The notes: generated from the sequence alone by a model not told the origin. DNA of 64,000 bases from Pirellulales bacterium (GCA_963773875.1 CAVZCV010000003.1:69433-133432), one strand, 5' to 3'; positions 1-64,000 are shown, counted from the stretch's first letter. Numbers and translations are program-made.

Positions 1-630
1 TACTTCACACGCCCACCCTCGGCGCAGACATTGTTGAATCGCATTGAAACGGCCGCTAGCGACACCGATTCTGCCGCAATCCTCGGTGCGGAAGACGAAG
101 TGCAAAGCTTTCTCGAGCGCTTTCCGGACGACGAACATGCGGCCGCCGTCAAACAATATCAGGAAGAAATCAACCTGCAACGCTTGGAACGCCGGTTCCG
201 TTTGCGAACCCACGGGCTGTTGCACGACGAGGCACTGTTGCCGGTCGAGCGCGATTATTTAGAGGCCATGAACTATCTACCGCTCGATCCGCAGCGAACG
301 ATCGATCGTCTGCAAGCGCTTGTGAACCTCTATGGTTCCGCGAGCAAACCATCCGAACGAACCGCCGAGTGTGTTGAGCTGGCCAGACGCCAACTCAAAC
401 AGGTCAGTGCACAATTGGCAAAAGTACTTCCGCAGTACATGCAGTTGATCAACGTCAATCTGCGAAAAGCAGATCAACTGCGAACGACCGCGCCGCAACA
501 GGCGAAGGAGATTTGGCAAAGCATCATTACGCTGTATGGCGATAAGCCTTGGGCGGCCCAGCAAGTGGCGCAGGCCAAGGCGGCAATCGCTTTGATCGAT
601 CGAACCGAAACCGCGGACGGAAGCAAATGA
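1..630 (+). CDS. Hypothetical protein, C-terminal fragment; the frame is open from base 1, so the N-terminus lies outside the window
   Basis: Frame +1 is open from position 1 to the stop at 628-630, which overlaps the hemB ATG (ATGA). The product is Q/E/R/L-rich and probably helical. I recognise no domain. Confidence 0.5.
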   Translation, partial: YFTRPPSAQTLLNRIETAASDTDSAAILGAEDEVQSFLERFPDDEHAAAVKQYQEEINLQRLERRFRLRTHGLLHDEALLPVERDYLEAMNYLPLDPQRTIDRLQALVNLYGSASKPSERTAECVELARRQLKQVSAQLAKVLPQYMQLINVNLRKADQLRTTAPQQAKEIWQSIITLYGDKPWAAQQVAQAKAAIALIDRTETADGSK

Positions 631-1622
631 CGCCAGAGTTTCCCACTACTCGGATGCGCCGCTTGCGTTATCACCCGCTCGTGCGCGAGCTGGTTCGCGA
701 GGTGCGATTAGCGCCGCAGAATTTCGTGCTACCACTATTTGTGCGCGCTGGCCGGAACATCAAGCAGGAAATTGGTTCCATGCCGGGGCACTTTCAATGG
801 TCGCCGGACCGCCTGGTAGCGGAGCATTCATCCATCGCCGATCTCGGTTTGGGCGGTGTGCTGTTGTTCGGCATTCCCGAAAAGAAGGATTCCATCGGGA
901 GCGATTCGTACAGCGACGACGGCATTGTGCAACAAGCCGTTCACGCGCTGAAGAAGAGCACGCCGAATTTGCTTGTAATCACCGACGTTTGTTTCTGCGA
1001 ATACACCGATCACGGACACTGCGGTGTGCTCAACGAAAAAACTGGACGGACCGATGTCGATAACGACGCCACGCTCGAGCTGCTCGCCAAACAAGCGCTG
1101 AGCCACGCCAAGGCCGGCGCCGATATTGTCGCGCCCAGCGGCATGATGGATGGCATGATCGGCGCAATCCGTCGCGGCCTCGATCAGGCCGGCTTCACGC
1201 ATCTGCCAATCATGAGTTATGCCGCGAAATACGCCAGCGCGTTTTATGGCCCGTTTCGCGATGCAGCCGAAAGTACACCGCAAAGTGGCAACCGGCGTGG
1301 ATATCAAATGGATCTCTCGGCGTCCGTCGGTCAGGCGCTACGTGAAGTCGAACTCGACTTGGCGGAAGGCGCCGATTTGGTGATGGTCAAGCCGGCGCTC
1401 GCCTATCTCGACGTAATTTCCGCCGTCCGCGACCGGTTCCCCGGCGTCCCACTCGCGGCTTACAATGTGTCGGGCGAGTTCAGCATGGCCAAGGCGGCGG
1501 CGAAAAATGGTTGGCTCGATGAGCGGGCGGTCGCACTCGAAATGCTGACGGCTATTCGCCGCGCCGGTGCGTCGATCATCATCACGTACTGGGCAAAAGA
1601 AGCGGCGGCGTGGATCCGCTAA
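627..1622 (+). CDS. hemB: Porphobilinogen synthase (delta-aminolevulinic acid dehydratase)
   Basis: Has the N-terminal '[17 protein letters not shown]' motif and the metal-site '[13 protein letters not shown]'. Also 'VAPSGMMDG' and the active-site Lys region 'MVKPA'. Length is ~330 aa. The ATG at 627 overlaps the upstream stop. Confidence 0.92.
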
Positions 1623-1702
1623 CAGCAATTGCAAAGTGCAAGGTGCAAAATGACACTTGGCATCTCTCCATCGTTCTAAATTCTGCACTTTGCATTTTCG
1701 GT

Positions 1703-3007
1703 ATGTCCCATCAAAAAAGTCACGCCGCTTTCGAACGAGCAAAACAGCTTATGCCAGGCGGCGTGAACAGTCCCGCGCGGGCTTTCGGCGGCGTGGGCGG
1801 GGAGCCAATTTTCTTTAGCCGCGGTGAAGGGCGCACACCTCTTCGATATCGATGGCAATCGCTACATCGACTACGTCGGCTCTTGGGGGCCGATGATTCT
1901 AGGGCATGCGCATCCGAAAGTGAGCGCGGCGCTATCTGCGGCGATTGAGCGTGGCACAAGTTTCGGCGCGCCGACGGAAGCCGAAAGCGAACTTTGCCAA
2001 TTAATTATCGACGCGGTGCCCAGCGTCGAAAAAGCGCGGCTCGTGAATTCCGGCACCGAAGCAACCATGAGCGCCATTCGCTTGGCGCACGGCTTCACCG
2101 GCCGCGACCTAATCATCAAATTCGCCGGCAATTACCATGGCCATGTCGACAGTTTGCTCGTGGCCGCAGGCAGTTCTGCCGCCACGCTCGGAGTGCCAAA
2201 TTCACCGGGCGTCACGGCGGGAACGGCAAAAAATACGCTCGTGCTGCAGTACAACGACGTCACATCGCTGGAAGCCACGTTCCGCGCGCACGGTTCCAAG
2301 ATTGCGGCCGTCATTTTTGAGCCCGTGGTCGGCAACATGGGCGTTGTCGTGCCGATGCCGGATTCTTGCACGCCTTGCAAGAATTGACTCGGTTAAACGG
2401 CGCCTTGCTAATTGCCGATGAAGTGATGACAGGCTTTCGCGTGGCTTATGGCGGCGCGCAATCGCTCTTTAACTTCAAGCCGGATCTGACAACTCTGGGA
2501 AAAATCGTCGGCGGAGGACTGCCTGTCGGAGCTTATGGCGGCAGGGTCGAGATTATGGACAACGTCTTGCCGGCCGGAAAAGTCTTTCAGGCCGGCACGT
2601 TGAGCGGAAATCCGCTCGCGACCGCAGCGGGCATCGCGACGCTGAAGGTGCTACGCGAAGAGAATCCATATCCGCGGCTGGAGCAACTTTCGGCTCGACT
2701 TGCAAAAGGTCTGGATGATGCCGCAGGTGCCGCCGACGTACCGCACACGATAGCTCGAGTTGGCAGCATGATGACGCTCTTTTTTAGCCGCGATCCCGTA
2801 GTCGATTGGCCCTCCGCCAGCCGCTGCGATACCAAAAAGTTCGCGGCCTATTTTTGGAAGTTGATCGAGCGTGGTGTCTATATGCCGTGCAGCCAGTTCG
2901 AAGCACTGTTTGTGTCGACCACGCACAGCGAAGCGGAGATCGATGCAACGATTACCGCTGCCCGCGAGGCGCTTTCTGTTTACGCCCGGCCGTTCATTTC
3001 ACGATGA
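1703..3007 (+). CDS. hemL: Glutamate-1-semialdehyde 2,1-aminomutase, split over three frames as assembled (indels near 1829 and 2360)
   Basis: Starts '[28 protein letters not shown]...RGEG' in frame 2. Continues '[28 protein letters not shown]...VVGNMGVV' in frame 0. Ends '...[22 protein letters not shown]...' in frame 2. The junctions sit at a GGG run (1826-1831) and at CCGG (2358-2361), where GGG is expected. Confidence 0.85.
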
Positions 3008-3015
3008 ACTCGCAC

Positions 3016-6000
3016 TTACGTCGCCGGTCGTGGCTTCGGCGGCGGAAGTTCATTGGTGCGCTGCACAGGCGGAGACGGCTGCGGTTTGGGCGGCGGTTCA
3101 TCGTTCCGCGGGGCTGCGGTCGGCGGCTGCGCTGGTGTCGGTCGATTCGCAGAATTGCTTGGACGAGTCCCTGAATTGGCTTGCGCAATCGGGGTGTTCG
3201 CCAGGCTGGTCATATCGATGTCGCCGTGGATCGACAAATTCCGGCCCGTCAGCGCCACATCGGCGTCTAGTCGATGCAGCCAATCGAGCGCCGGTGCGCG
3301 ATAATCGTTCGGCGCAGATTCAAACAAACTCTCTACGAGCCGCATCCGCTCGGGCGGCAAGGCCCCTGAGGCCCAAATAGGGAACGTGCCGGGCCGCGAA
3401 TCAATTTGGTACGTTCCGCCCAGCGGGCAAACAAATTTGGCACCGGTTAGCCTCTCTGCTTCTTTCATGCAGTCGTTCAGCGGAACGCGCAATTGAACTT
3501 CGAGTTCATGCAGAAAACCGACATTTCCAATCGCGGCATTTTTTGCTGACCGGTAAAACAGACCGTTGATGGTTGAAGCCAGTTTCGATTTGCCAAGATC
3601 GCCGACATGCAGCCAGGCCTGGGCGGGCCGCGGTGCGTCGACGAATCGCAGTTGAGGAGTCACGATTTCAAGCACACGGCGATCCATTGAGGCCGTCGTG
3701 TAATCGGCGCTACGGCGCTGCCATAATCCGGAAGACGAACGTCCGTAGCCGGAAGGATCAAGCTGCACATCGCCGACTCCCAACCAGGAAAAGATCGCCG
3801 GCGTGGGATACGCTCCAAAGTAAAACGGCGGCAACATCGACATGGGCGATAGCGCACTGCCGCCACCGCCAGCCGCTCCAGCCGCGTTCAACAGCGCACC
3901 GCCGAGCGGACCACTCAGCAGTCCGCCGCGACCCGGCGCTGGCGCCGGCGGCGCGCTCCCTTGGGCTGCGCCTGCGTTGACTGCATCTGGCTCCGCATCT
4001 CGCAGCGCGCCGAACAATCGGTACACGCCCTGCGGTTGGGCAAGCCCTTTGGAGGCCAGTAGATTTCCGCTCATCACTGCCTCACCAGAAACGACGTCGC
4101 CCGGCACGGGCGCCAACCGCTGCTTACTAATGGGACCAAGCGCAGAGGCAATTGTTTCGTAATTCTTCGCAGCCATCGGCGTTAGTTGCACATCCAAAAC
4201 AATCCGCTCCTCGCCGGCTGCCTTACCCGGTTCACGGTGGATCGCTGCCAGAATTGGATCGAGCTGTTGCCATTTCGATTGAAACCAACTTGTGAACTCC
4301 TCATCGCGCTTGGCCTCCGCCAAAGTTACCCGATCGAACGCCACGTCCGGCACCGGCGCGAACGAACCACGGGCGCCGCGTAACGAATCGACGAACTCGC
4401 CGGAGGAATTCAATTCCAATCGGCTACCATCGGCGCGGGTTCCAAATCCTTCCGGCAGATACTGCCGTTTAATCAGCGCATCGAGTGAATCTGCAGACTC
4501 TCCATCAGCGCGGGCCGCCAATTGGGCGACCAGCGCCATTTCAATTTCAGCCGTCGAGAGCGATCGCCGCAGCATTTCAGTTTGATAGCGAGGCGATAGC
4601 AAATTGCGGAGAAACTCACTGGAGAGATATGCGAAGATGGTGTCGTTCCGCTCGACCGGCATCAACGATCGGGCATAGCGAAAATCCGGCAATGCACCTA
4701 ACGAAGTTTTGCCGGCGGCTGTTTCCAGGAACCGCTCAATCAACCGGCGTGAATTGGTGACGAAATGAAGATCGCCGTCGACTACATAAAAAGATCGAAC
4801 CCGATTGTCGGGCGTGGAAAGGAAAGAGACCTGATGTCCGGCGATCTCGAGTTTTTCATCGGTCGCGCCGTTTTCGCGCTGCAACGTTTCGCGCGCTGGC
4901 GAAGGAAATCTGAATTCAGTGCAAAGTTGTTGCGCGCATGAAACAGCATGCCCACGGCTGCGCCTTCGCGGAAGAACGTGTCTTCACCGATCATGGCAAC
5001 ATCTGCCACGACCGCGGGACCCAGCAGCGGCGAGAGCACCGATTGCTTCAAAGAAAGCTGCCGCTCCATCCGCGCCGTAATGCCGAAGTCGAGTCCGCGG
5101 CGATTGAACAGATTCTTCAGATCGCCGGCCCAACGATCCAGCGTGTCGTGAAACCACAAGTAGTTGTTGAAATTGCCAAAGCGCACATAAAAACATTCCG
5201 CCGGCACGCGGTTGGCAAGTGGTTCAATCGTGACATTGCCGATCGCTTCCGGAACATTCGTCGTAAAACTGAGCGCTTGAGGCAGCGGCTGATCGGCCAC
5301 TTCTGTTTCGGTGCGCCGCGTCAATGCTTGAATCTGCAATTCGCTTCGCAGGCTATCGGCGCCCAATAGCATGCCGAGTTGCTGATCGAATTGTGCGTCG
5401 CCGGAGTTCGCGCCCGGCAGCTTTGGAGCCCCGCCGCCTGCCATACTCAAGACGCTATCGGCAAGGGTGCGCACAAACGGCGGTGGAATTTGGCTGGCTG
5501 GTGGCAAATTCAAACGCCGCGAAAGCGTGGTGAGCAGGTAATTGTCGACCATGTCGGGATAATCTGTCGGCCGATCGATGCGATTCGCTTGCCGCGTGTA
5601 CTTCACCCACCAATCGTCCAACAGACGTGCTTGGCCGACAGGATCTTTTCGAGGCGTCACAACCGTGGCCACTGCAGTTGGTGCGTAAAGCTGCAATTCC
5701 AATGGGCCATCGCCGCTGAACAGAAAATACACCGTGGCGGTTTGTGGGCGTCCCAGAAACTCGCGAGCCACGGTGCGCAGCGGCTCCGCTTGAAAGGCTT
5801 GGAACATTGCCCGGCCGTTTTTCTCCGTGAGCGTGAACATGCTGTTGCCCATCAGGGCGGGATTAGCGCCCGGCGGCAACTGCACTGTCCATCGACCCAC
5901 GCCGTAGGGCTGTCCGGCAAACGCTTCGACCTCCGCCTCTTGCGGCCGCAATCGCCCTTTGAAAAGCTGCGCATTCACGGAGCCACCGTGGCACACCGAC

Positions 6001-7001: not shown

Positions 7002-7013
7002 ACCACATTGAAC

Positions 7014-11839: not shown

Positions 11840-12480
11840 ATGTTTAATCGCCGCATAAATTTTTCGCTGCGTGGCATTTTCACGCTCATCGTGCTGGTCG
11901 CCGTCGGCCTGGCATTGTGGGTGTCGACTCGTGTCGCCGATGAGAACAAAAGATTACGCGCGGAGAATACGCGACTGCGAAATGAATCGGGGCAGCTCAC
12001 GATTGAACCGGGCGAAGAGAACAAAGTTCACGCAATCAAGATTCCAACGTTGGAATCGTACACTTGGCGATGGCGCGTCTATGCGCAGGGGGTCGTCCTA
12101 TTAGCTTGCGCGTCTCCACGGAGAGTACCAATGGCGATGGCAAACCGGCTGGCTCAGGTTCGAGTTCGACGCTCCTCTCGTCGGGTGAGACTCTCGTTAC
12201 ACTGGCCTTGCGCCGCTCGCCAAAAGGCCGCTGGGAATGGGTCATGCAAGAGACCGATGGTGCAGGATCGGGTGAAGGTCGCAGTGGAATTTCGCTGAAT
12301 GCCGAGAACGCGGAACTGCTGATCGATAACAACACATCCAGCGCTTCGGGAGTTTACCAAACCACGACGGCGGCCGAGCTGGGTCACGATATGGAACTGC
12401 TGAATTTAAGCATCACGGCGTCGTCGGCCGGAAAAATCCGAGAGACGATCAGGGCGACTATTCACGATGGTTCTCCTTAA
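11840..12480 (+). CDS. Membrane-anchored coiled-coil protein (paralog B), split by an indel near 12090 as assembled
   Basis: 'MFNRRINFSLRGIFTLIVLVAVGLALWVSTRVADENKRLRAENTRLRNE...IKIPTLESYTWRWRVYA' in frame 2. Then 'GETLVTLALRRSPKGRWEWVMQETDG' in frame 1. Both parts are colinear with paralog A. Confidence 0.6.
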
Positions 12481-18445: not shown

Positions 18446-19704
18446 ATGAAAACAAGATTGATCTCTCCGTGTCTCCGTGTCTCCGTGGTGATTTCGTTCG
18501 CCATCGTATTCGCGTCGCGGATTGTTGTCGCCGAAGAGCCGCAATCGGATGCGGAATCCACGAAACCGCGGGTCGTTAAACCGCGGGATGCGAAAGAAAT
18601 TAACGCGGCGATTGATCGCGGCGTGCGATTCTTACTTGGCGATCAGAACAAGGATGGCTCGTGGGGATCGGCGGGGAACAGCACGGGCATCGACGTTTAC
18701 GCGCCGATTCCAGGGGCTCATCAAGCGTTTCACGCCGCGGTGACGGCGCTGGCGATTTCCGCGTTGATTGAAGTCGGCGGCGACTCCACCGAGGTGCAAA
18801 ACGCGATTGATCGCGGCGAGAAGTGGCTGTTGGAAAAACTTCCCAAGGTTCGACGGGCAGAGCCAGAAGCGCTGTACAACGTTTGGACGCACAGCTACGG
18901 CATTTCGGCACTGGTCCACATGCTGAAGCGTAAGCCGGACGATGCGGAGCGCGCCGAAAAAATCAAGCAGCTCATTCGCGATCAATTCGGCATGCTCGAG
19001 CGGTACGAATGCGTTGACGGTGGCTGGGATTATTACGACATGCGGGCACACGCGCAGCATCCGGGCGGCGACGCGCTGAGTTTTTGCGCGGCGACGGGCA
19101 TCATTGCGCTCCGCGAAGCAAAGGATGCGGGCATCGATCCACCGCAGAAGATGGTCGATCGTGCGATCGCCTCGATCGAGCGACAGCAGAAGCCCGATTT
19201 TTCGTATTATTACGGCGAGTACTTGCAGTGGTACCCAATGATGCCGATCAATCGTCCCGGCGGAAGTTTGGGCGCTCGCAAGCCTGCAACTTGGCGCTGC
19301 GAATGTGGGGCGATACGAAAATTACCGACGAGCTAATGAACAGCTGGCTCGATCGGCTCTTTAATCGAAATATCTGGCTCGATATCGGACGCAAGCGGCC
19401 CATTCCGCATGAATCGTATTTTCAGGTGGCCGGATACTTTTATTACTACGGCCACTACTATGCGGCTCGGTGTGTGGAAGTACTGCCCGAGGCGAGCGAT
19501 CGGAACCGGCATTACGATCAGCTGGCGGAGCTGATTTTGAAGGTTCAAGAAAAAGACGGTTCCTGGTGGGATTTTCCGTTGTACAACTATCATCAGCAGT
19601 ACGGTACGTCGTTCGCGCTGATGACACTGGGCCGCTGCCGGCCGAAAGCGGTAGACAGTGAATCTAGTAGTCCAACTGTCCTAGCCGGACGCCAGCACCA
19701 GTAA
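18446..19704 (+). CDS. Secreted prenyltransferase/squalene-oxidase-repeat (terpenoid-cyclase-like alpha-alpha toroid) protein, with an indel near 19265 as assembled
   Basis: Signal peptide. Repeated 'QNKDGSWGS', 'CVDGGWDYY' and 'QEKDGSWWDF' (QxxDGSW-type) repeats. Both ORF halves (18446-19336 and 19084-19704) carry the repeats. Confidence 0.65.
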
Positions 19705-24207: not shown

Positions 24208-25924
24208 TCACTCGACTTCGAGAATCTCGATTTTTAATTGCCCGATGACTTGCGCTATGGGCAGAAAACTGCTGTAGGCTTGCGCGCCGGCGAGGTTTGA
24301 ATCGGTGAGTTTCAGATGCGCTGCTCCGATGCCGCCGCGACCCAGCGTGGCATCCATCGGCACCCAACGATCGTCGATCCACAGCTGATTCCACATGTGA
24401 TAGACAAAACCTTGTGAAGCCGGCTGATACACGAGCCCAATTGCCACCCGCGCGGGAATGCCGCGTGCGCGGGCTAGGGCCGCCAGCAACACGGAATGTT
24501 CGGTGCAGTCGCCCTCGCGCTCGCGGGCAACCTCGGCAGCAGTGGAAAACGCTTGCGAGAAATTCTTCAGTTTGATGGTGTGTTTTACTAGCGATTCTAA
24601 TTCGCAAGCAATCTTCCACGGATCTTTTTCGCCTGACGCGACGGAATTGGCGAGGGCTACGACCTGCGGGTCATCGCTCTGAATTAAATTGTTTGGCGTT
24701 CGGTCTTCTTCACTTGGCAATCGCAGCGGCTTCGATTGCTCGGTTGCAGCAGACTGTGCAATCTGCTCACTTTTGGATTGCAGCCAGCGATCGCTGAACA
24801 CCGTGATATCCGCGGTGTGGGGATCGAGCGATACGATCTGCTGTAGCCGACCCGTGGCGAACACTTTGGCTGGATAGTCGCCGGTCAGCTGAACCCGATA
24901 CTTGATGCGCCTGGATGCATGTGGATCTACCACTGGCCGCACCACAGGCACTGTGTTGTCGAGAACCAAATCCAGTTTTCGCGGTCCCGATTCTGCGAGC
25001 GCCAATTCTTGCGGCGCGGAATGTTTCCTGGTGCAATGCCGCTAGCGAGGTTTTTAACATTTGACCTTGTCGATCGCACCACAACTGTTGGCGCAGAACC
25101 GGCGGATGATCGTCTGGCACGCTCATCGGCAACGTAGTCAGACTGTCGATTCGGAGCAGATCTTCACTGTGGTCCAAGAGCTGCGTTGGCTCATAGGTTC
25201 CAGCCACCAGGTCGATAATGACCACTTGGTTTGTCGCTGGCATCAAGGCCTTTAACGTTCTGCGGCTTCCTGGCAATAGCGGCGCCGCAGCCAGCGATTG
25301 TTCGGTGGCACTAAAACCCAGCGTGCCGGGCGTCCACGGGAGCGCCTGTTTGGTTGTCTTGCCTTGGGTTTTGGTTTCGACGATCAGTTTGCCCTCCGTT
25401 ATGCGGCCGTTCATCACGGTGCGGCTTGCGCCGGAGTTCATTTCTGTCGTGAAAGAAATTGGTTCGCCGGTCGGCAGCTCCAAACTTCGTGTCGAGATGG
25501 AAATGGCGGTGCGTTGGCCTTCGCGATCGACAACAAGTTTATTTTCGTTATCGATTTGGATTGCCCGCTGGCCATCAACCGTAACGTCGGTCATTGCCGT
25601 ATGCATCCAGCCAATTCTGGTGCCGTAGGCGTAGACTGCCTCCCACCACTGTTTGGGATGGCCCTTGGCGGTAACCGCCGCCGGATCGGTAGCAACGTCG
25701 GCTTGGGTATGCGCGGATTGCGCCACATTCGCAGAAGCTGCACCCGCTGAATTTTCCGTCGGCGTAATCGCCGCCGAATGTGCATCGGCCGGGGTGGTCG
25801 TACTTTGTGCAGGAATTGCCAGCGAAGGAGTTGAGCGGCTACCACAGCCGTATGCTGCAAAGATCAACACCGATGTTGTCGCGAAGCAACCAACTCGCAT
25901 CAAAATCATGTTGTTCAAAATCAT
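24208..25924 (-). CDS. Transglutaminase-like lipoprotein (N-terminal lipoprotein domain plus C-terminal transglutaminase core). Split as two overlapping ORFs, with an indel near 24950-25005
   Basis: N-terminal 'MILNNMILMRVGCFATTSVLIFAAYGC' lipobox-like signal in ORF 24767-26131. C-terminal 'EGDCTEHSVLLAALARARGIPARVAIG...VYHMWNQLWIDDRWVPMDAT' (Cys-His-Asp core) in ORF 24208-25005. Confidence 0.7.
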
Positions 25925-36288: not shown

Positions 36289-36887
36289 ATGATAGGCTCC
36301 ATACTCGCAATACTGATCAATCTGGCAAGCACATGCGGCACGATTGGAGCCGACGTCGAGGACCGTTCGTTCTGGTCCTTCTCCTCGGTTATTTATGCCG
36401 AAGTGCTCGGTACGACAAAATCGACGGCTGATCATCCCGGCGACAAGATTACGTTGCGGCCGATTTCCACGCTTACCGGATCCTTCGATTGCGCATATGT
36501 CGGGCAATTTACAGCGGGAACGCAGGTTGGCGCTGACTCAGCGCAATCGATGAATTGCCCCCGAATGGCGCGAAGGTAATCGCACTTGTCTTACACGGGA
36601 AGCCGGGAGATTGGCAAATTAAGGACACGCAATTCCTCATCCCCAATAACGGCTGTGCCTATTTTCCCGCGGCGGAGCGTCCAAAAGGTTACGTCCAAGA
36701 TTATCACAAAAAATATCCGTGCCTCTTCGAAGTCACCGGCTTCGACGATCCAAAGGTGACGGAGACGATCGAAAACCTGCGCAAGCTCCGCGGCCAACAG
36801 CGCGAGGAAGCCGAAAAAGCCGCCGCCGAAAAAGCGCAGTCCGGCAAGAACCCCACCACCCCACCCGCGCCCGACGCCGGCAAGTAG
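36289..36887 (+). CDS. Small secreted protein, tandem-array paralog 2 (indel near 36540-36580 as assembled)
   Basis: AAGGAGAG RBS. Signal 'MIGSILAILINLASTCGTIGA'. 'FWSFSSVIYAEVLG' and 'LRPISTLTGSFDCA' in frame 1. Then 'AKVIALVLHG...CLFEVTGFDDPKVTETIENLRKLRGQQREEAEKAAAEKAQSGKNPTTPP' in frame 0. Confidence 0.72.
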
Positions 36888-37033: not shown

Positions 37034-37708
37034 ATGCTCAACGTACTACTTGGGATCTCATTTTTAGTTAGTATATGCCGAGTGATCGTTGAGGACGGTT
37101 CGCCTCCCGAGCTTTGGCAGAATGCGGCGGTTTTATACGCTGAAGTCCAATCTACTAAATTAAATAATGAAGAGATTCCCAATAAATCTGATAAACACCC
37201 AGGCGGCGCGCTCCAGAATGCAGATTATTCGATACGCATCAAACCAATCGCCACATTGACAGGGAATTTCGATTCAGCGCGGGAACAAGATATTGAAATT
37301 CAAACGCAGGTTTTTGGCACGGCAGTGATGGATCAAGGTGCAATACACCAGGTTCCAGCCAACCACGCCAAGATAATCGTCATGATTAAATGGAACGATT
37401 CGGCATCCGACCGTAAAAACCGAGTGCCCACTTGGGATGTACGTTTTTTTCCCCAGGATACGAACAAAAATCGGCCCGCCCTGTTCGAAGTCACCGGTTT
37501 CGATGACCCGAAGGTGACCGAGACAATTGAAAACCTGCGAAAACTCCGCGCCGACCAAAATTCCACTAGTATTTTACGGCCCTTTTTTGAGAAGTCGCCC
37601 GAACGCGCCGAAAACGCCGCCGCCGAAAAAAAGCGCAGTCCGGCAAGAACCCTACCACCCCACCCGCGCCCGCCGGCAAATAGCTCGCCGGTCGGTGATC
37701 GCTCGTGA
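37034..37708 (+). CDS. Small secreted protein, tandem-array paralog 3. The C-terminus is frameshifted by an A7 run at 37626-37632 (A5 in paralogs 1 and 2). The corrected stop would be 37683
   Basis: GGAGGA RBS. Signal 'MLNVLLGISFLVSICRVIV'. Motifs 'WQNAAVLYAEV', 'IKPIATLTGNFDSA', 'AKIIVMIKW' and 'ALFEVTGFDDPKVTETIENLRKLR'. A ~45-nt divergent insert precedes the 'AENAAAEKK' tail. Confidence 0.72.
   Translation: MLNVLLGISFLVSICRVIVEDGSPPELWQNAAVLYAEVQSTKLNNEEIPNKSDKHPGGALQNADYSIRIKPIATLTGNFDSAREQDIEIQTQVFGTAVMDQGAIHQVPANHAKIIVMIKWNDSASDRKNRVPTWDVRFFPQDTNKNRPALFEVTGFDDPKVTETIENLRKLRADQNSTSILRPFFEKSPERAENAAAEKKRSPARTLPPHPRPPANSSPVGDRS
37477..37695 (+). repeat. Direct repeat unit 3 (see 35984-36222), carrying an internal ~45-nt divergent insertion
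   Basis: Conserved 'ttcgaagtcaccggtttcgatgacccgaaggtgaccgagac' ... 'gccgccgccgaaaaaaagcgcagtccggcaagaacc' ... 'tagctcgccggtcgg'. Confidence 0.75.
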
Positions 37709-37748
37709 ACGACTACGGCAGCACTCATCAACGGCCGATGCGATTGAC

Positions 37749-39322
37749 TCAATGCGTCCAGCCGCAAATCGTGGCCAGGCCGCGAATGGCGCCGCTGCCG
37801 CCGCCGAAGCACTGGCAAAGAATGACGCTGCCCACGCCCATCAGCCCCACGGTCGGCGGTTCCGGCACGGGCACAATGATGCCCACCACGGATGTATTGA
37901 AATTGTTATAGGCCGAATACGTGCCGCGCATCCAAATCAGTGCGAATTGCGATTGATCGATCACGCTCACCTGCGGTCGCACATTATCGGTCGTCGAGTT
38001 CGAAGTGATCGCCGACCAGTTCCACGTCGTTCCGCCGTCGCTGGTGACGCCTTTGAAAATCTCCCAATGCGCAAGCGGCGAGTCGGTATCGGGCGTGTAG
38101 TTGGTCGAGACGAAAACCGTGTTCGGGTCGTTCGGCACCAGCGTCGCCAGGCCGGCATAGTCGTTCTCGCCGTTGTAGAGCGGGCTGCCGGCGAAGCCCA
38201 TGCGGTGCGTTTGCCACGCGGCGCCATCCCAGCGCGAATAGTAATAATCCATGCTGTTGGCGATGTACGAACTATTGGGGTTGTTCTTCCGCACGCTGAA
38301 GATCAAAAACGGATTGCCACTGGCGTCGAGCTCCACATCGTTCGCCCACGAGGCAACGCTGTTGGCGTTGCCAGCGTAAATTTGCGTGAACGCGGTTGGG
38401 GAATAGCTGTATCCAGTGCCGCTGGCAATTGCCGCTGCATTGTTGTTCGCCGGCGCCGGAAAAGGAGTTTGAGCGGTGCTGATCTGCCCGTTACTGCCGG
38501 CAACCGTCGACCCATCAGCCTTATGCACGGTGCCAACGCCATTGGCATCGAACTGCAAATAGCCGGCGAACAGGCTGTTCGCGAAATCGCGCGGATGATC
38601 GTTCGTGGTGATGAACCAAATCTTGTCGGAACCGTTCGAGGCATATTTGACGTACGGCCTTCCCGGGCCGCTGTTGTTCGGATTCACCCAATACAGAAAG
38701 TGGCCGCCGTAGGCAAAGCTCAACGACGAATCGTTGGTCGGATTCAAGCCCGTGAACGTCGAATAATTTGGATCGTAGCCGATGCTGCGCGAGAAATTGT
38801 AAATCTTGTTCGGCACGCTCAAATAAAACGGATTGGCGTATGTGTTACCATTGCCATCGCTGGGCGGGTTGGCACTGCCTGTTTGCTCCGCACCCCAACT
38901 CGCCGTGCTGCCGGGATCGGTGCTAATGCGCCACGCACGAGATTATCGGTGCCGTGGCGTTGAAATACCGCCAGGTAGCGGCCATCGGGCAGCACGACGA
39001 AAGCCGGCACATCGTGGTCGTCCTGCTGTAGCGCGCTGTGCAACGTGAACGTCGACGGCGTTTGCGTTGCCAAACTATAGCTCGTGACGCGAATATCACC
39101 GGCCGTCGCGCCATTGGCGGTCGTGCCTGCAACGGAACCAATAATGAGCTGATGGTTATCGACAATCACGCGCGGATCTTGAAACCACGACCAGCCGCCG
39201 TTTTGCGTAAAGGTAATGAGCGAACCGGCAACGTCATTTGCGGCAAACGACCGGTTGCAAATTGCAAGTATCACAAGAAGCTGTAGCCCAACAGCCGTGC
39301 CATGAATCCGAAAATGTCGCAT
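37749..39322 (-). CDS. BNR/Asp-box repeat (sialidase-fold-like) cell-surface protein with a C-terminal PEP-CTERM-like anchor. Split as two ORFs, with an indel near 38820-38960
   Basis: Signal 'MRHFRIHGTAVGLQLLVILAICNRSFAA' in ORF 38819-39427. Asp-box 'VTSDGGTTWNW'. C-terminal 'IVPVPEPPTVGLMGVGSVIL' (VPEP plus hydrophobic helix) in ORF 37749-38822. Confidence 0.65.
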
Positions 39323-42047: not shown

Positions 42048-43330
42048 ATGAGCGCCACAATTCGACCCGTCCGCCCGAGTGAGCAAACGTCATTGGCAGC
42101 GCGCTACGCCGAAGTGCGCCGATTCACAGAAGAGTTGTGCGCGACGCTGGAGCCCGACGATTGCTGCATTCAATCGATGGCGGATGTCAGCCCCACGCGC
42201 TGGCACCTCGCGCACACCACCTGGTTTTTTGAGACGTTTATTCTTGCGGACCAACCGGGTTACCAGGTGTGCCGGTCCGAATACAGTTTCCTATTCAATT
42301 CGTATTACAACGCCATCGGCGAGCAGTTTCCCGCGCACGGCGTGGATTGCTTTCGCGGCCGACGGTTGCCCAGGTGTTCGAATATCGCCGCGAGATCGAT
42401 GATCGCATGCTGCGGCTGCTATCGGAGGCAGATGACAGTTTGCAGCAGCGTTTGCGCGAGCGACTGGAATTGGGTTTGAATCACGAGCAGCAACATCAGG
42501 AGTTAATGCTGACCGACATCAAACATGTGCTCGCTTGCAATCCGATGAATCCGATTTATCGAGCGGGGCATTTTTCCACTGACGAGCCACCGGCGCCGGA
42601 GTGGGTTGAGTTCGACGAAGGACTGTGCTGGATCGGCCACGACGGAGATGGCTTCGCTTACGACAACGAGCAGCCGCGGCATCGCACCTTTTTGGAAGAC
42701 TTTCAGATCGCTAACCGCCTGGTGACGTGCGGCGAGTACTTGGATTTCATTCACGATGAGGGCTACAAGCGGCCCGAACTGTGGCTTTCGCAGGGTTGGA
42801 ATTTGGTGAACGAGCAAGGTTGGCATGCGCCGTTGTATTGGCGGCAGCGCGAACACGAGTGGCATGAGTTCACCCTGGCCGGCATGCGGCCACTGGTGCA
42901 CGACGCCCCGGTCTGCCATTTAAGCTATTTCGAAGTAGATGCTTATGCGCGCTGGGCCGGCGCACGATTGCCGACGGAAGCCGAATGGGAAATCGCCTCT
43001 GCGAAGGTTCCCGTTGAAGGGAATTGGGCCGATACGCTGATTGCGGCCGATGCGGCTGTTCATCCTGCCGCTGGCGCCGATGGCAATTCACGCCCGGCTC
43101 AAATGTTTGGCAATGTCTGGCAGTGGACGGCCAGCCCCTACGTTGGTTACCCGGGCTACCGCACTGCCGCGGGCGCGCTCGGAGAATACAACGGCAAATT
43201 CATGTGCAACCAATTTGTACTGCGTGGCGGTTCGTGCGCTACGCCGTCGAAGCACATCCGCCGAACGTACCGCAACTTCTTCCCGCCCGAAGCCCGTTGG
43301 CAATTCTCCGGCGTGCGTTTGGCAAAGTAG
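42048..43330 (+). CDS. egtB: Hercynine oxygenase / sulfoxide synthase EgtB (DinB_2 plus FGE-sulfatase domains), with an indel near 42340-42370 as assembled
   Basis: N-terminal 'SPTRWHLAHTTWFFETFIL' DinB-like region in ORF 41991-42479. 'EYRREIDDRML...NHEQQHQELMLTDIKHVL...GWHAPLYW...GNVWQWTASPYVGYPGY...YRNFFPPEARWQFSGVRL' in ORF 42269-43330. Confidence 0.85.
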
Positions 43331-43433: not shown

Positions 43434-45013
43434 ATGGATCCCATGACACACAAAAGCCATTCCCTGCGGCGGCCGGAGTTTCCGCGTCGCAGGTACAGCA
43501 GGCTCACCGTCCAGCTCCTGATCGTCGGTTGGCCGATGGTTTGGTTTGCCGCCACTTCCAAGGCGGAAGAAACGGCCAAGCCAGCTGCTGGTGAATCGAA
43601 GCCAGATTCACCGCCGGAGGCGCTCGAGTTCCGATTCAAAGTCGTATCGGCCGGTGGTCAACCTGTTGCGGGAGCTGACGTCCGACCTTGGGCCGTGGGT
43701 GTGCAGAACGGAAGTTTTGGATTGCCGGACAAGGATTACCCGGCCGTAAAGACCGATGAGCAAGGAATGGCGACCATCACCTTTTTGCAATCGGGCGAGG
43801 AGCATACGGCCAGCAAGTTCAAGAATTTGAAGAAGAAAGACATCTCGCGCGTCGCATTCGAAGTGCGGCATCCGGAGCATCCAACCTGGTCGAAGTACAT
43901 TCCCAGCGACGGTAAAGCGCCCATCGTGCTGATTGAGCCGACCACGGTGGAAATTCAAGCGCATCGCCGCAGCGAACTCGCGCCGGCTGATCGACTGTAT
44001 CCGATGCTGGCGGCTGTGGCCGATTACAGCGATTGGTCGGTAGAGAAAGATAAGCTTGTTCTGCGGCGCATTGATTTAGCCAGCGATCAACCGTGGCGAT
44101 GGCTGCGGTTGGTGCACGTTCCGGAAAAAGGGCCGGCCTGGTTTAGCGAGCTCATTGATTTGAAACAGCGCGACGACAATCCGATTTCGATCGATGTACC
44201 GCTTAAGCTCGGCGTTCGCGTGGTCGGCCGTTTGGCCGATACCGTGCCACGACCGGTGAAAAACGGCCACGTCGTGGCGGAAATTGTTCACGGCACCGAT
44301 TGGTGGAACAATTGGTATTGGGCAGCCACCGCCGAAATTGCCGAAGACGGCACGTTCGCGCTGAATTCGCTGCCGACCGATGAGAACCTGCAAATCATTG
44401 CGCTGTGCGACGGTTGGGTTTCCAGTTCGGCATCGGCGGAGTCGGTCAAAGAGTACACCGAGAAATACCATTGGCAGGGCGTGCACTATCAGGGTCCTGA
44501 TACGACATTCGTTTATCCGCAACTTGTGCGTCTGGAGGGGCCGACGGCCGATGTGGAAATGCCGATGGATCCAACGGCGACTTGCGAAATTATGGTGGTC
44601 GATGAGAACAAGCAGCCGATTGCCGATGCAGAAATTCATTTCTGGCCGAATCAGCTATTCTTCAATTCCGGCTCAAACATCGTCGGCGAGGGCAACGATA
44701 CACTGACGGTGATTAGCGAAATGTTGAAATCCGGGAATCATAAGATTCCGCCGTTTGAGAGAGATTTGAAGCGCTACTCGGCAACCACCAACAGCGAAGG
44801 CAAAGCCACGATCGCCAACTTGCCCGCAGGCAAATGGACGGAAGATGCGCCGCGCGCGAGGAGTGGTTTACCGTCTCGCACAAAGGCTATATCGCAGTCG
44901 CAAATTTTCCGAATCCGAAATTTGGACTTGCATCGAAAGAACCCGAGTTGGTGGCGAATCTTACGCCAGGCAAAACCGAACGGGTCGCCATCCAGATGAA
45001 GAAGTTGCCGTAA
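43434..45013 (+). CDS. Hypothetical secreted protein. The C-terminus shifts frame near 44840, and the as-assembled ORF ends at 44999
   Basis: Start 'MDPMTHKSHSLRRPEFPRRRYSRLTVQLLIVGWPMVWFAATSKA' (signal anchor). A long beta-rich body. Frame 3 continues '...EEWFTVSHKGYIAVANFPNPKFGLASKEPELVANLTPGKTERVAIQMKKLP*'. Confidence 0.55.
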
Positions 45014-47357: not shown

Positions 47358-47360
47358 AAA

Positions 47361-49710: not shown

Positions 49711-50716
49711 CGTCCGCCTCCTTTCTCGCCGAAGGGCGGCGGCGGGAGGACCGGCGGTGGAGAGGCGTCTTCGGTTCGGACGGGAGTTTCGCCGGGGCCC
49801 AGCGATTTTATGTAGGCAATCAACTTAATCAGATCTTCCTCATCAACCTGGCCGCGAAACGTAGGCATGATCGGCTCCCAGCCGAGCACGACTTTCGCTT
49901 CCGGATTGACAATCGATTCGCGCAAATACGTGTCGTCTGCCGTGACAATTTGCCCGTTCTTCAGTGGCACTGCCTGACCGTAAAGATTCTCCAGCACGGG
50001 AGCGCGAGCCTTAGCGTTGCCGCTATGGCACGTGACGCATTGCAGCTTGAGAAACAACTTGCGACCTTCGAGCGCAAGCGATCCTTCGGCCTCGCTGTTG
50101 AGCCACTGCTGGTAATCCGGCGGACTCAGGACCGTCACAAAACCCGTCATGCCGCCATGATTGGTGCCGCAATATTGCGAGCAATAGAGCGGAAACCGGC
50201 CAATTTTTGTCGCCTGAAACCAGGTATAAACGTAGCGGCCTGGCAGCACATCGATTTTCGCGCGAAAATCGGGCACAAAAAAATCGTGGATGACATCTTC
50301 GGACGTGAGCGTCAACTTGACCGGTCGATTCACCGGCACATGGAGTTCGTTGATCTCGCGTTGACCCTCAGGATGTTGCAGCTTCCACATCCACTGTTTG
50401 CCAACCACATACACGTTCAGCGCCTCGCTGGGGGGCTGAGCTTGATTGAGGTACAAATTCGCGCCCAGGCAAACATGGCGCAAAAGAAAAACAGCGGCAC
50501 AATGCTCCAAGCTAATTCCAAGCGCAGGGAACCCGTAATCCGCGGCGTGATGCGTTCTTCACGGCGGCGGCGATAGCGAATGGTGAAAACAATAATCAAT
50601 ACACAAACCACGAGCGCCACCGTTCCTGTGACGGCGATCAAAAAGAAGAACAGCGCATCGACCCGGCGTGCGGCAATCGAGGCTTGCTCAGGAAACAATT
50701 GCAATTGGGCAATCAT
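49707..50716 (-). CDS. coxB: Cytochrome c oxidase subunit II with a C-terminal cytochrome c domain (caa3-type), with an indel near 50440-50500 as assembled
   Basis: TM region '[31 protein letters not shown]...' in ORF 50417-50884. CuA domain '[49 protein letters not shown]' and heme-c 'CVTCHSGN' in ORF 49707-50510. Confidence 0.88.
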
Positions 50717-55862: not shown

Positions 55863-58960
<3,098 letters not shown>

Positions 58961-58973
<13 letters not shown>

Positions 58974-60851: not shown

Positions 60852-61886
<1,035 letters not shown>

Positions 61887-61890
<4 letters not shown>

Positions 61891-63101
61891 GATGTCGAAA
61901 GAACGTGCGCTCCCTGACCTGGCCGACTCGTGAACAGCGTCGCTGCGATGCCGGTCTGTTTTTGATATTGCTCGGCAAGCTGTTGCATCGCCGTGGCTGC
62001 CTGTTCGGTTTTCACCAGGCTAACCGTGCAGCCCCCGAATCCGCCGCCGGTCATTCGCGCGCCGATGACACCACCGGAATCGCCGATCTCGCGAGCAATT
62101 TCGACGAGTAAATCTAATTCCTGGCAGCTCACTTCATAATCGTCGCGCAGCGAATCGTGGCTCGCATACATTAGCCGGCCAACCTCGCTCCACTCACCGC
62201 GGCGAATCGCCTCGGCGGCCCGAACGGTGCGATCGATTTCGCCAATCACATGGCGGGCGCGGCGGTAGTTAACATCGCCGAGCTGCGGTCGCGCCGATTC
62301 CAATTGCGAGAGCGTCGCATCGCGCAGCAATTCCACTCCCAAAACTTTGGCGGCCGCTTCGCATTGGGCGCGCCGCTGCGCGTATTCGCCGCCGGTCAAT
62401 TCGTGCTTCACGTTGCTATTCGCGATGAGTACCGTAATGTCCGGATTCGCAAACGACACAAGCTCGAACTTTTGCGAGCGACAATCGAGCAGCATCAAAT
62501 GATCGGCCGTGCACATGGCACTGCTGAACTGATCCATGATGCCGCACGGCACGCCCGCGTATTTGTGCTCTGCCTCTTGGCACAAGAGCGCTTTTTGTAC
62601 GGGTGTGAGTGGCTTCCCTGTTAGTGCTTCCAAAAGCGTCGCCGTTGCCACCTCGAGGGCCGCGCTGCTCGACAATCCACCTCCCAGCGGAACCGTGGAA
62701 CGAACGGCTGCATCGAACGCAGGCGGCGCCTGGCCACGTGCCGCAAAGCCAGACACAACGCCTTCCACATAGCTGGACCATTTGGGCGAAGAAAGCGAAT
62801 CATCGCCGCGCAGCGAAATTGACGCTGTTTCCTCTTTGCTGGCGCTATAAATGCGCACTGCGTTCTGATTGGCCTGGTTCCCGGCTAGATCGGCCGCAAT
62901 AACTACATACCGCTCAATCGCCATCGGCAGCACATAGCCGCCGTTGTAGTCGGTATGCTCGCCTATCAGATTGACTCGACCCGGCGCAGCAACCATGTAT
63001 TTAGGTGGGCGCAAAAACAGTCGGCGGAAGTCTTCGGCCGTTTGGGCCGCGAGCTCCGACAGATTTGCCGCCGCCGGTTCGGCTGCCTGCCGACTTGTCA
63101 T
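61887..63101 (-). CDS. galK: Galactokinase
   Basis: '[17 protein letters not shown]' and the GHMP ATP motif '[15 protein letters not shown]'. Start ATG at 63101; the stop overlaps the galT start. Confidence 0.9.
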
Positions 63102-63325
63102 ACTTGATCCCTCGAACTTTCTAAACCGCAATTGCGATCGTCCGCACGCGAATGGGGCCTGTTGGAAACCTGCCAAAGTCATTTCCCGAGACAAGCGCGC
63201 GGCGGGAAACGCTGATTGTCTGCTGGCGAAGTCGGTTGATCAAGGGTGCGCTTGTAATCACGACCCGACCGCGCAATGAACCTCGCAAGCGTCACACCTC
63301 ACTGCGGCGAAATTCAAGTCGAAAA

Positions 63326-64000
63326 CTACTTCACCGGCTTGAGCAACACCTCGAACAAACTGACTTCCGTGGGTTGCTCTGGCTGGAAACGCAGTTGGTA
63401 TTGCCCAGCTGATATTTGAAAGGGCGTAAATCTGACGAGTTGCTCTTTAGTGCTGTCGGCATCGACCGTCGCACCAATTACTTCAGCGTTCAAACCTCGC
63501 CGGAACACAAGTTTCAACTGAGTTCCTTTAGGGGCGATAACGCGCGCGGAAATTTCGAACGTCGCCCGCTGGTTTAGCCGGATCGGCCAGGACAGTGCAT
63601 CCCCTTCTTTCGTAAAGCCTGCCGCATAATAACGTCCGGCTTTGCCGTCGCCATAAGTGAATTTTCCTTGCGTCTGAGCGTCGAACGCCAATAACTGATT
63701 AACTTCGATATTGGTGGCCAACAGCCGCCCTTTGGTGCCCTTCACCGGCCCGTCCATTTCTAGCACAACGACGCTGTCGGTTTCATCGGGCGGCGTCTTT
63801 GGCAGTGCAACGGTGATATCGCTCTCGCCCAACTGCCACGCATCGATGGGTTTCTGCGGATCTGCCAGCAGATAGGCGCGCTTCACATTTCCCTGCAGGT
63901 TGCCAACAATCAGACTACCGTCGCTCGGCCACTGGAACACGTGCAGATACAGCTTGTTGCCTTTCACCGTAGAATCGCCCCAAGCCTGGCGATCGAGCGG
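63326..64000 (-). CDS. C-terminal beta-sandwich domain of a larger protein (possibly a glycoside hydrolase such as an alpha-L-fucosidase-type C-terminal domain). The N-terminus lies beyond the window end
   Basis: The minus-strand frame is open to position 64000. 'KLYLHVFQWPSDGSLIVGNL...VVLEMDGPV' resembles a GH C-terminal domain. The assignment is tentative. Confidence 0.4.
   Translation of the reverse strand, partial: PLDRQAWGDSTVKGNKLYLHVFQWPSDGSLIVGNLQGNVKRAYLLADPQKPIDAWQLGESDITVALPKTPPDETDSVVVLEMDGPVKGTKGRLLATNIEVNQLLAFDAQTQGKFTYGDGKAGRYYAAGFTKEGDALSWPIRLNQRATFEISARVIAPKGTQLKLVFRRGLNAEVIGATVDADSTKEQLVRFTPFQISAGQYQLRFQPEQPTEVSLFEVLLKPVK

What the first reader, a model, noticed from the sequence alone, without database searches (positions are those of the whole stretch)
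1..64000. At least 14 genes are split across reading frames: a systematic homopolymer-indel signature rather than mass pseudogenisation
Conserved genes whose homology continues uninterrupted in a different frame include hemL (twice), the tandem coiled-coil paralog B, the prenyltransferase-repeat protein, the transglutaminase lipoprotein and array paralogs 2 and 3. The BNR/PEP-CTERM protein, egtB, the 43434-45013 gene, coxB, actB (twice), galT and probably the 3016-6059 gene and the 29863 lipoprotein are also split. Where I could resolve the junction it sits in a homopolymer. In hemL the expected 'GEG-AHL' is broken by GGG at 1826-1831. In hemL the expected CCGGG reads CCGG at 2358-2361. In paralog 3 an A7 run at 37626-37632 replaces A5. 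Essential single-copy genes (hemL, coxB, actB, galT) are affected, so true pseudogenisation is unlikely. The assembly is most likely an uncorrected long-read or homopolymer-error-prone consensus. The listed gene coordinates span the split ORFs for that reason.
Basis: partly seen in the sequence, partly recalled or inferred. Interest (0 to 1): 0.6.

Follow-up and report, generated by a model that had tools for sequence, protein, structure and literature searches.

The report
Assembly frameshifts clustered at GCGC sites
Fourteen genes in this soil planctomycete contig are broken by 16 tiny insertions or deletions that are almost certainly long-read sequencing errors, and they sit next to the four-letter word GCGC, not in single-letter runs as first thought.

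Summary
All 14 genes (16 junctions) are split across reading frames. Each was checked against an intact ortholog, a solved-structure homolog or an in-window paralog. Sixteen minimal edits restore 14 uninterrupted ORFs with no internal stop: 13 one-base additions, one one-base removal and two two-base additions.

The artefact reading is supported. Essential genes are hit (hemL, coxB, actB). Conservation is equal on both sides of each break. Relatives have these genes intact but carry different breaks of their own. Related Illumina contigs (1.74 Mb) yielded 13 candidates, essentially all reading as gene boundaries.

The stated signature is wrong. Homopolymers of 4 or more touch 4 of 16 junctions against 2.7 expected (P=0.27). 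All 36 coding runs of 6 or more stay in frame. An unbiased 4-mer scan puts GCGC first: 15 of 16 junctions against 3.0 expected (P=2e-11). CGCG alone and other dinucleotide repeats are not enriched. Six of seven frameshifts in related nanopore-only Planctomycetota MAG loci also sit at GCGC.

The best explanation is deletion-biased, context-specific nanopore consensus errors, probably caused by DNA modification at GCGC. The platform and the modification are inferred, not shown. This is not a biological feature.

The parts
1825..1832 (+). hemL (1703-3007) junction 1: one extra base, context GAAGGGCGCAC
   Evidence: tblastn frames 2 to 3 against L001 and 8 other loci. Repair scan: removing 1 nt scores 409.8, adding 2 nt scores 399.
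2351..2363 (+). hemL junction 2: one missing base, context GCCGATGCCGGATTC. This is the only junction with no GCGC nearby.
   Evidence: Frames 3 to 2 against 13 or more loci. Repair scan: del1 469.7. Pfam profile positions are contiguous across the break.
4890..4892 (-). 3016-6059 gene (about 1014 aa): one missing base. L001 reads GCGCGCGGAAACG where the window reads GCGCGCGAAACG.
   Evidence: The DNA alignment places the gap.
12083..12091 (+). Coiled-coil paralog B (11840-12480): one missing base in TATGCGCAGGGGGT, either at the GCGC or in the G5 run
   Evidence: Paralog A used as reference.
19270..19273 (+). Prenyltransferase/SQHop-repeat protein (18446-19704): one missing base in TTTGGGCGCTCG
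   Evidence: P0009 residues 3-244 in frame 2 and 242-377 in frame 1. Repair scan optimum at 19273.
25005..25016 (-). Transglutaminase lipoprotein (24208-25924): +1 frame change, best read as 2 missing bases in TTCCG[CG]CGCCG
   Evidence: Seven orthologs. del2 460.4 against ins1 450.1. A 2-nt gap appears in the DNA alignment with L162.
30553..30558 (+). Lipoprotein (29863-30737): one missing base in AGCCCCGCGCCCC
   Evidence: L162 ORF residues 30-296 in frame 1 and 296-360 in frame 3. Repair scan. DNA alignment.
36535..36561 (+). Array paralog 2 (36289-36887): one missing base, most likely at the GCGC at 36541-36544 (CTCAGCGCAATC)
   Evidence: Paralog 1 matches frame 1 and then frame 3. Scan with paralogs 1 and 3. 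Paralog 3 supports the reading ..AIDELPPNGAKV.
37624..37635 (+). Array paralog 3 (37034-37683): -1 frame change at AAAAAAAGCGCAG (A7 against A5 in paralogs 1 and 2)
   Evidence: DNA alignment A1. Adding one base restores the conserved C-terminus and stop.
38933..38933 (-). BNR_4 protein (37749-39340): one missing base. Relative L163 reads GTGCGCTGGCGC where the window reads GTGCGTGGCGC, so the lost C completes a GCGC.
   Evidence: Six orthologs. DNA alignment.
42332..42332 (+). egtB (42048-43330): one missing base in TTTCCCGCGCACGG
   Evidence: Pfam DinB_2 and FGE-sulfatase domains lie in different frames. The repaired protein aligns without a gap to PDB 8qf6. Repair scan.
44855..44858 (+). 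43434-45013 gene (CarboxypepD_reg-like C-terminus): one missing base in GCGCCGCGCGCGAGG
   Evidence: P0163 residues 2-402 in frame 3 and 399-447 in frame 2. Repair scan. Homologs extend 45-60 aa beyond the truncated call P0160.
50460..50464 (-). coxB (49707-50884): one missing base in CTGGGCGCGAATT
   Evidence: Pfam COX2_TM and COX2 lie in different frames. Four to five JGI references.
57196..57267 (-). actB (55859-58973) junction 2: -1 frame change, poorly resolved. The best position is about 57253-57262, at GAGCCGCGCGTAAC.
   Evidence: About 40 references, frames -2 to -1. Repair scan.
57732..57750 (-). actB junction 1: one missing base; the interval includes GTTTGCGCGTCC
   Evidence: About 40 references, frames -3 to -2. 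Repair scan.
61286..61291 (-). galT (60852-61890): +1 frame change, best read as 2 missing bases in TTGGCG[CG]CGAAG
   Evidence: Pfam GalP_UDP_transf and GalP_UDP_tr_C lie in different frames. E. coli GalT (1hxq) has one more residue at the junction. del2 478 against ins1 468.

Best explanation
The 16 frame breaks are errors in the consensus sequence of a long-read assembly, most probably nanopore-only. They are not mutations in the organism.

The errors are small and biased toward missing bases: 13 one-base deletions, 2 probable two-base CG deletions and 1 one-base insertion. They occur at or within about 2 nt of the palindrome GCGC. About 2.5% of the 576 coding GCGC sites are affected.

The most likely mechanism is that a base modification at GCGC, from an HhaI-type or other cytosine methyltransferase, shifts the pore current of the k-mers that overlap it. 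The basecaller then drops or adds a base in a sizeable share of reads. At modest metagenomic coverage, one round of a polisher that does not model modification leaves some sites wrong.

Shown: the breaks, their type, their positions, the GCGC association, and its recurrence in related nanopore MAG loci.

Inferred: the sequencing platform of this contig, and the modification.
For: 1. All 14 genes are continuous in orthologs or paralogs.
2. Sixteen 1-2 nt edits give 14 uninterrupted ORFs of ortholog-like length with no internal stop. After repair, a codon-usage Viterbi finds frame switches only at gene boundaries or as short intergenic segments.
3. In an unbiased scan of 136 canonical 4-mers, GCGC ranks first: 15 of 16 junctions against 2.98 expected, P=1.9e-11. 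All 9 junctions resolved to 8 nt or less lie within 2 nt of a GCGC, against 8% for a random coding position.
4. Among narrowly resolved junctions, isolated GCGC sites (316) carry 5, isolated CGCG sites (267) carry at most 1, and the other ten dinucleotide repeats carry 0-1. A generic CG-repeat or heteropolymer effect does not explain this.
5. DNA alignments to relatives place the missing bases inside GCGC-containing strings, for example GTGCG[C]TGGCGC and GCGCGCG[G]AAACG.
6. Frameshifts found in related nanopore-type Planctomycetota loci are at GCGC in 6 of 7 cases and hit different genes: L001, L007, L050 (two) and L162 (two). L001, L007 and L050 are Microflora Danica MAGs. L162 comes from ENA assembly ERZ25039533 and is counted as nanopore only from its Flye-style contig name.
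7. The Microflora Danica MAGs were made from nanopore reads only, with metaFlye and one round of Medaka 1.8.0 using model r1041_e82_400bps_sup_g615 (PMC12313526).
8. Motif-specific, modification-mediated nanopore errors that survive polishing and affect only some occurrences of a motif are documented (PMC10687267; PMC12392509).
Against: - The record of this contig could not be retrieved, so the platform is inferred from its relatives and from the error pattern.
- No reads or signal data were available, so the modification is untested.
- No DNA methyltransferase is encoded in the window (Pfam).
- GCGC is not avoided in the window (O/E 0.97).
- Published modification-mediated errors are mostly mismatches and not indels.
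- 5mC in a CpG context is something basecallers are trained on (my own knowledge).
- One junction (hemL 2351-2363) and one frameshift in another MAG (L081 rpoA) are not at GCGC.
- GCGC-linked breaks appear in at least four different Planctomycetota MAGs. That could equally mean an error intrinsic to the sequence context, independent of modification.
Confidence: 0.8

Rival explanations
1. Classic homopolymer-length errors: the consensus miscounts runs of one base, as in nanopore R9, 454 or Ion Torrent data.
For: The events are biased toward deletions. Three junction intervals touch a run of 5 or more: G5 in paralog B, C5 in paralog 2 and A7 in paralog 3. Several lost bases could belong to short G or C runs flanking a GCGC, such as GGG, CCC or CCCC.
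Against: Homopolymers of 4 or more touch 4 of 16 junctions against 2.68 expected (P=0.27). Those of 5 or more touch 3 against 0.93 (P=0.06). All 36 coding runs of 6 or more and 9 of 7 or more are in frame. Eight junctions touch runs of 3 and four touch runs of 2 or less, and one of those four (g43) sits in a pure (CG)n tract.
Confidence: 0.05
2. An artefact that is independent of modification: an intrinsic weakness of the basecaller or polisher for GCGC or short G/C-only strings.
For: The GCGC-linked breaks occur in at least four different Planctomycetota MAGs. All 16 junctions lie in or beside a G/C-only run of 5 or more. Two events look like the loss of one CG unit from a (CG)n tract. Heteropolymer and local high-GC error classes are described for nanopore assemblies (PMC12392509).
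Against: G/C-only runs of 5 or more that lack GCGC are not enriched: 9 against 7.2 expected, P=0.25. Isolated CGCG, which is equally GC-rich and equally a dinucleotide repeat, is not hit. CCGG and GGCC are not enriched.
Confidence: 0.25
3. The mutations are real: recent mass pseudogenisation, or mixed-strain indel variants that the consensus captured.
For: MAG consensus sequences can blend strains, and no reads were available to exclude this directly.
Against: There are no nonsense substitutions, no indels longer than 2 nt and no loss of conservation downstream of the breaks. Haem synthesis, cytochrome oxidase and alternative complex III genes are all hit at once. None of the lesions is shared with the closest relatives, which carry other breaks. 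No known mutational process makes 1-nt deletions specifically at GCGC (my own knowledge).
Confidence: 0.03
4. Programmed recoding: ribosomal frameshifting or transcriptional slippage restores the reading frames in vivo.
For: None beyond the fact that the genes are readable across the shift.
Against: Fourteen unrelated genes are involved. Shifts go in both directions, with two in opposite directions inside hemL. There is no slippery heptamer or A/T run at 15 of the 16 sites. Orthologs are in a single frame.
Confidence: 0.01

Closest known systems
Modification-mediated systematic errors in nanopore assemblies (Chiou et al. 2023, PMC10687267; Lohde et al. 2024, cited in PMC12392509)
   Same: The errors recur at one short motif, survive read-based polishing, affect only some occurrences of the motif and fall within a few bases of it.
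   Different: The published cases are mainly mismatches at motifs such as GCAGC, GCTGG, GATC and CCWGG. Here the errors are 1-2 nt indels at GCGC, and the modification has not been shown.
Homopolymer indel errors of nanopore R9, 454 or Ion Torrent consensus sequences
   Same: Deletion-biased single-base indels split genes into adjacent ORFs and lower the ratio of predicted protein length to ortholog length.
   Different: There is no enrichment at homopolymers, and long runs are called correctly.
Heteropolymer (dinucleotide-repeat) and local high-GC error classes of nanopore assemblies (PMC12392509)
   Same: GCGC is formally (GC)2, and two events look like the loss of one CG unit.
   Different: Only GCGC is enriched. 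CGCG alone and the other ten (XY)2 repeats are not.
Genuine pseudogene-rich genomes, such as reductive symbionts and Mycobacterium leprae (my own knowledge)
   Same: Many genes are interrupted by frameshifts.
   Different: Here there are no stop-codon substitutions, no larger deletions and no relaxed conservation. Core respiratory and haem genes are affected, and the lesions are not shared with relatives.

Membership tests
Modification-mediated nanopore consensus error | Errors concentrate at one short sequence motif well beyond chance | tested here: met
   GCGC at 15 of 16 junctions against 2.98 expected, P=1.9e-11, the top of 136 4-mers. All 9 narrow junctions lie within 2 nt.
Modification-mediated nanopore consensus error | The motif is modified in the organism's DNA | not testable with these tools
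   No reads or signal data. No methyltransferase is encoded in the 64-kb window (Pfam). GCGC O/E is 0.97, which is uninformative.
Modification-mediated nanopore consensus error | The sequence was produced from native DNA on a nanopore platform without short-read polishing | tested here: inconclusive
   The contig's own record could not be retrieved. The nearest relatives are nanopore-only Microflora Danica MAGs (PMC12313526), and their loci show the same GCGC-linked breaks.
Modification-mediated nanopore consensus error | The errors disappear with amplified DNA, a modification-aware model or accurate reads | not testable with these tools
   This needs the raw data.
Homopolymer indel error | The indel lies inside a run of one base, typically 4-5 or longer | tested here: not met
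   Runs of 4 or more: 4 of 16 against 2.68 expected, P=0.27. None of the 36 coding runs of 6 or more is affected.
Homopolymer indel error | Bias toward deletions | tested here: met
   13 one-base deletions and 2 probable two-base deletions against 1 insertion. This feature is not specific to homopolymer errors.
Genuine pseudogenes | Lesions of mixed kinds (nonsense, larger indels) and relaxed constraint after the break | tested here: not met
   Only 1-2 nt indels are present. The repaired ORFs have no internal stops. Identity to orthologs is similar on both sides of each break.
Genuine pseudogenes | Lesions inherited by close relatives | tested here: not met
   L001, L162 and L163 have the affected genes intact. 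L162 is instead broken in GH97 and in the ortholog of 26317-27066, both of which are intact in the window.
Programmed frameshifting or transcriptional slippage | A conserved slippery sequence, with the shift conserved in orthologs | tested here: not met
   The contexts are GC-rich and differ from site to site. Orthologs are in a single frame.

The most novel reading that the evidence does not exclude
Several soil Pirellulales and Planctomycetota lineages share a cytosine modification at GCGC that the basecalling and polishing models used for these MAGs (ONT models of about 2022-2023) did not handle. It could be 4mC or a non-canonical modification, and not ordinary 5mCpG. In that case the map of GCGC-linked frameshifts is an indirect readout of a lineage-wide epigenetic mark, and a motif-aware repair would fix most broken genes in these MAGs.
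Probability: 0.3. Interest if true: 0.35.

Novelty: not a real feature. Interest (0 to 1): 0.15.

Why it matters
As biology this finding is ordinary. The organism almost certainly has intact hemL, coxB, actB, galT and egtB genes.

As data quality it matters in three ways.

1. The truncated products of this contig are already in public protein collections. Examples are P0010 (385 aa against about 565 in orthologs), P0046 (357 aa against about 525) and P0160. They will distort completeness estimates, pathway calls and protein-family statistics.

2. The error context is specific. Checking GCGC sites would locate about 94% of the breaks in this window. A motif-aware or modification-aware re-polish is therefore the right fix, and homopolymer polishing is not.

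3. The same context recurs in related nanopore MAG loci. The problem, and possibly a GCGC modification, may be widespread in soil Planctomycetota genomes.

Tried and rejected
- Retrieving the contig's own record. Exact look-ups show its proteins are in the collection on a 143,928-bp contig from NCBI and ENA. The look-up of encoding contigs returned nothing for them.
- A concatenated four-gene query for the search for homologous proteins. It diluted the word filter and returned a single hit, P0009, so one search was largely wasted.
- L081, fetched through a protein in the same 90% cluster as the window's GH43. It shares only that gene with the window, at 84% nucleotide identity, and gives no synteny.
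- Synteny with L001. It stops at window position about 7500, so L001 covered only three junctions.
- Two apparent junctions at 47936-48031 and 54472-54478. These are gene boundaries (coxA/coxC and ActC/ActD) that appear fused in stop-to-stop reference ORFs. I rejected them as frameshifts.
- Paralog 2 scanned with paralog 1 alone. This placed the junction in a C5 run. Adding paralog 3 and reading the alignment moves the best position to the GCGC at 36541-36544, but the interval stays wide.
- GCGC avoidance as a hint of a restriction-modification system. O/E is 0.97, which is uninformative.
- Literature search for GCGC-specific nanopore indels. Nothing directly relevant was found, and Nanomotif does not mention GCGC.
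- A frameshift survey of non-Planctomycetota nanopore loci. The reference coverage was too thin to detect events, so lineage-specific and general causes could not be separated.
Full report
**What the window is.** The 64-kb window has 57% G+C. It encodes hemB-hemL, an alternative complex III (actABCDEF) plus cytochrome oxidase cluster, egtD-egtB, galE-galT-galK, and many planctomycete-type secreted proteins (Pfam). HemB is 83% identical to that of a Pirellulales MAG, OY970289.1 (isolate MFD05442.bin.c.2), fetched as L001. Several proteins of the window are in the public collection on one contig of 143,928 bp with sources NCBI and ENA. The record itself could not be retrieved.

**Checking the observation.** I compared the window with ORFs from 163 fetched loci, with proteins from the database searches, with two solved structures and with its own paralogs.
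- L001 is syntenic with window positions 1-7500. Its single hemL ORF matches the window in frames 2, 3, 2, and its 1042-codon ORF matches in frames -3 and -2.
- JGI metagenome loci anchored on ActC show coxB split once and actB split twice, the latter with about 40 references.
- P0009 shows the split in the prenyltransferase-repeat protein.
- Orthologs of the transglutaminase lipoprotein are about 565 aa with the catalytic core. This contig's own gene call, P0010, is 385 aa without it.
- BNR_4 orthologs are about 525 aa against the own call P0046 of 357 aa.
- An L162 ORF shows that the 29863 lipoprotein changes frame at 30553-30558.
- Repaired EgtB aligns without a gap to PDB 8qf6.
- The GalT N- and C-terminal domains are in different frames, and the repaired protein matches E. 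coli GalT at E=2e-145.
- P0163 shows that the last 50 residues of the 43434-45013 gene are in another frame.
- Paralog comparisons show the splits in coiled-coil paralog B and in array paralogs 2 and 3.

All 14 genes and 16 junctions are confirmed.

**Type and position of each lesion.** For each junction I repaired the DNA at every position by removing 1 or 2 bases or by adding 1 or 2 N. I then scored each repaired translation against the references.
- Thirteen junctions are best explained by one missing base.
- hemL junction 1 is best explained by one extra base.
- The transglutaminase and galT junctions are best explained by two missing bases, which is a lost CG unit.

DNA alignments with relatives show the gaps directly: GCGCGCG[G]AAACG in the 3016-6059 gene, GTGCG[C]TGGCGC in the BNR gene, TTCCG[2 nt]CGCCG in the transglutaminase gene and GCCC[1 nt]CGCGCCCC in the lipoprotein gene. 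Applying the 16 edits gives 14 uninterrupted ORFs of ortholog-like length with no internal stop. I found no further intragenic breaks.

**The context is GCGC, not homopolymers.** The junction sequences kept showing GCGC, so I ran an unbiased test. For each of the 136 canonical 4-mers I counted the junction intervals (plus or minus 2 nt) that contain it. I compared that count with intervals of the same length slid over all coding positions of the window.
- GCGC ranks first: 15 of 16 against 2.98 expected, P=1.9e-11.
- CGCG and CGCA follow because they overlap GCGC.
- Homopolymers of 4 or more touch 4 of 16 against 2.68 expected (P=0.27).
- G/C-only runs of 5 or more that lack GCGC are not enriched (9 against 7.2).
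- All nine junctions resolved to 8 nt or less lie within 2 nt of a GCGC. Only 8% of random coding positions do.
- All 36 homopolymers of 6 or more inside coding segments are in frame.
- Among narrowly resolved junctions, isolated GCGC sites (316) carry 5, isolated CGCG sites (267) carry at most 1, and the other ten dinucleotide repeats carry 0-1.
- About 14 of the 576 coding GCGC sites (2.5%) are affected.

The exception is hemL junction 2 (GCCGATGCCGGATTC). Paralog 3's A7 lies directly against a GCGC. One missing base (A8 read as A7, or a base lost next to the motif) fits the pattern of the other events better than A5 read as A7.

**Artefact or biology.**
- The lesions are only 1-2 nt indels.
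- Conservation is the same on both sides of each break: hemL 81/78/81% to L001, and the BNR gene 68/85% to P0047.
- Genes for haem synthesis, cytochrome oxidase and alternative complex III are all hit.
- The closest relatives have every affected gene intact where it could be checked.
- The relatives carry different breaks. L162 is broken in GH97 and in the ortholog of 26317-27066, both intact in the window and both at GCGC. L001, L007 and L050 have one to two each, at GCGC.
- One break in another MAG from the same ENA assembly (L081, rpoA) is an extra G in CTTGGGCGAT with no GCGC nearby.
- The same detection on 1.74 Mb of Illumina-derived loci returned 13 candidates. Nearly all show a stop/start overlap with a ribosome-binding-site-like motif, so I read them as gene boundaries; I did not inspect each one, and L155 3583 is unclear.

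**Link to the sequencing method.** The Microflora Danica MAGs, to which L001, L007 and L050 belong, were produced from nanopore reads only. The pipeline was metaFlye plus one round of Medaka 1.8.0 with model r1041_e82_400bps_sup_g615 (PMC12313526). L162, L163 and L081 come from ENA assembly ERZ25039533 and are treated as nanopore assemblies only from their Flye-style contig names. Motif-specific errors caused by DNA modification are documented for nanopore assemblies. They survive polishing and affect only some occurrences of a motif (PMC10687267; PMC12392509).

**Mechanism, and what remains inferred.**
- Shown: deletion-biased 1-2 nt errors tied to GCGC, recurring in related nanopore-type loci.
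- Inferred: that this contig is itself a nanopore-only assembly, and that the cause is a cytosine modification at GCGC and not an intrinsic weakness of the basecaller for this context.
- For modification: the specificity for GCGC over CGCG, CCGG, GGCC and other G/C-only strings.
- Against modification, or neutral: no methyltransferase in the window, GCGC not avoided (O/E 0.97), published cases being mostly mismatches, and the same motif appearing in several lineages.
- I put the artefact reading at about 0.95. Given an artefact, I put modification at roughly 0.55-0.6 and intrinsic context at about 0.25-0.3.

**Comparison with known kinds and verdict.** This is not a member of the homopolymer-error class, because its defining feature was tested and not met. 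It is not gene decay and it is not programmed recoding. It behaves like the known modification-mediated nanopore error class, except that the errors are indels and the motif is GCGC, for which I found no report. It is not a biological feature of the genome. The stated signature should be changed from homopolymer to GCGC-context. Interest for biology is low. There is some practical value for polishing these MAGs and for anyone using their protein sets.

Noticed in passing
window 35560-37760 (+): Three tandem paralogs are only about 35-55% identical in protein over their first two-thirds. The last ~200 nt are about 95% identical at the DNA level. In paralogs 1 and 2 this includes the stop codon and about 90 nt of downstream non-coding DNA. 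Paralog 3 also has a 39-nt in-frame insertion. This suggests gene conversion or a shared 3' module.
   Followed up: partly
L162 8989-8995 and 13169-13174; L001 5865-5871; L007 8130-8132; L050 4220-4229 and 9275-9279: Related nanopore-type Planctomycetota loci carry their own frameshifts in other genes, such as GH97 in L162. All of these are at GCGC.
   Followed up: yes
L081 about 735 (- strand): The rpoA C-terminal domain is split by an extra G in CTTGGGCGAT, with no GCGC nearby. This is a break in another MAG of the same ENA assembly that does not fit the motif. GmrSD_N and GmrSD_C are also called as two genes at 12879-14668.
   Followed up: partly
window 24767-25924, 37749-38822, 43434-44999: The truncated gene calls from this contig are present in the public protein collection as cluster representatives: P0010, P0046 and P0160.
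   Followed up: yes
window 7660-8838: This 1.2-kb stretch has no coding signal in any frame in a codon-usage Viterbi and no Pfam hit for its ORFs (7677-8330 and 8282-8647 on the - strand). It could be a fast-evolving gene, a further broken gene or non-coding DNA.
   Followed up: no
window 47055-59620 (- strand): One long same-strand cluster holds actA-B-C-D-E-F, a small ORF, a SCO1/SenC gene, coxB, coxA, coxC and a COX4_pro gene. Alternative complex III and the aa3-type oxidase are encoded together.
   Followed up: no
window 10037-11155: A 355-codon antisense ORF shadows the tilS-like gene with an almost identical GC1/GC2/GC3 pattern. Long antisense ORFs are common in this window and should not be called as genes.
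   Followed up: no
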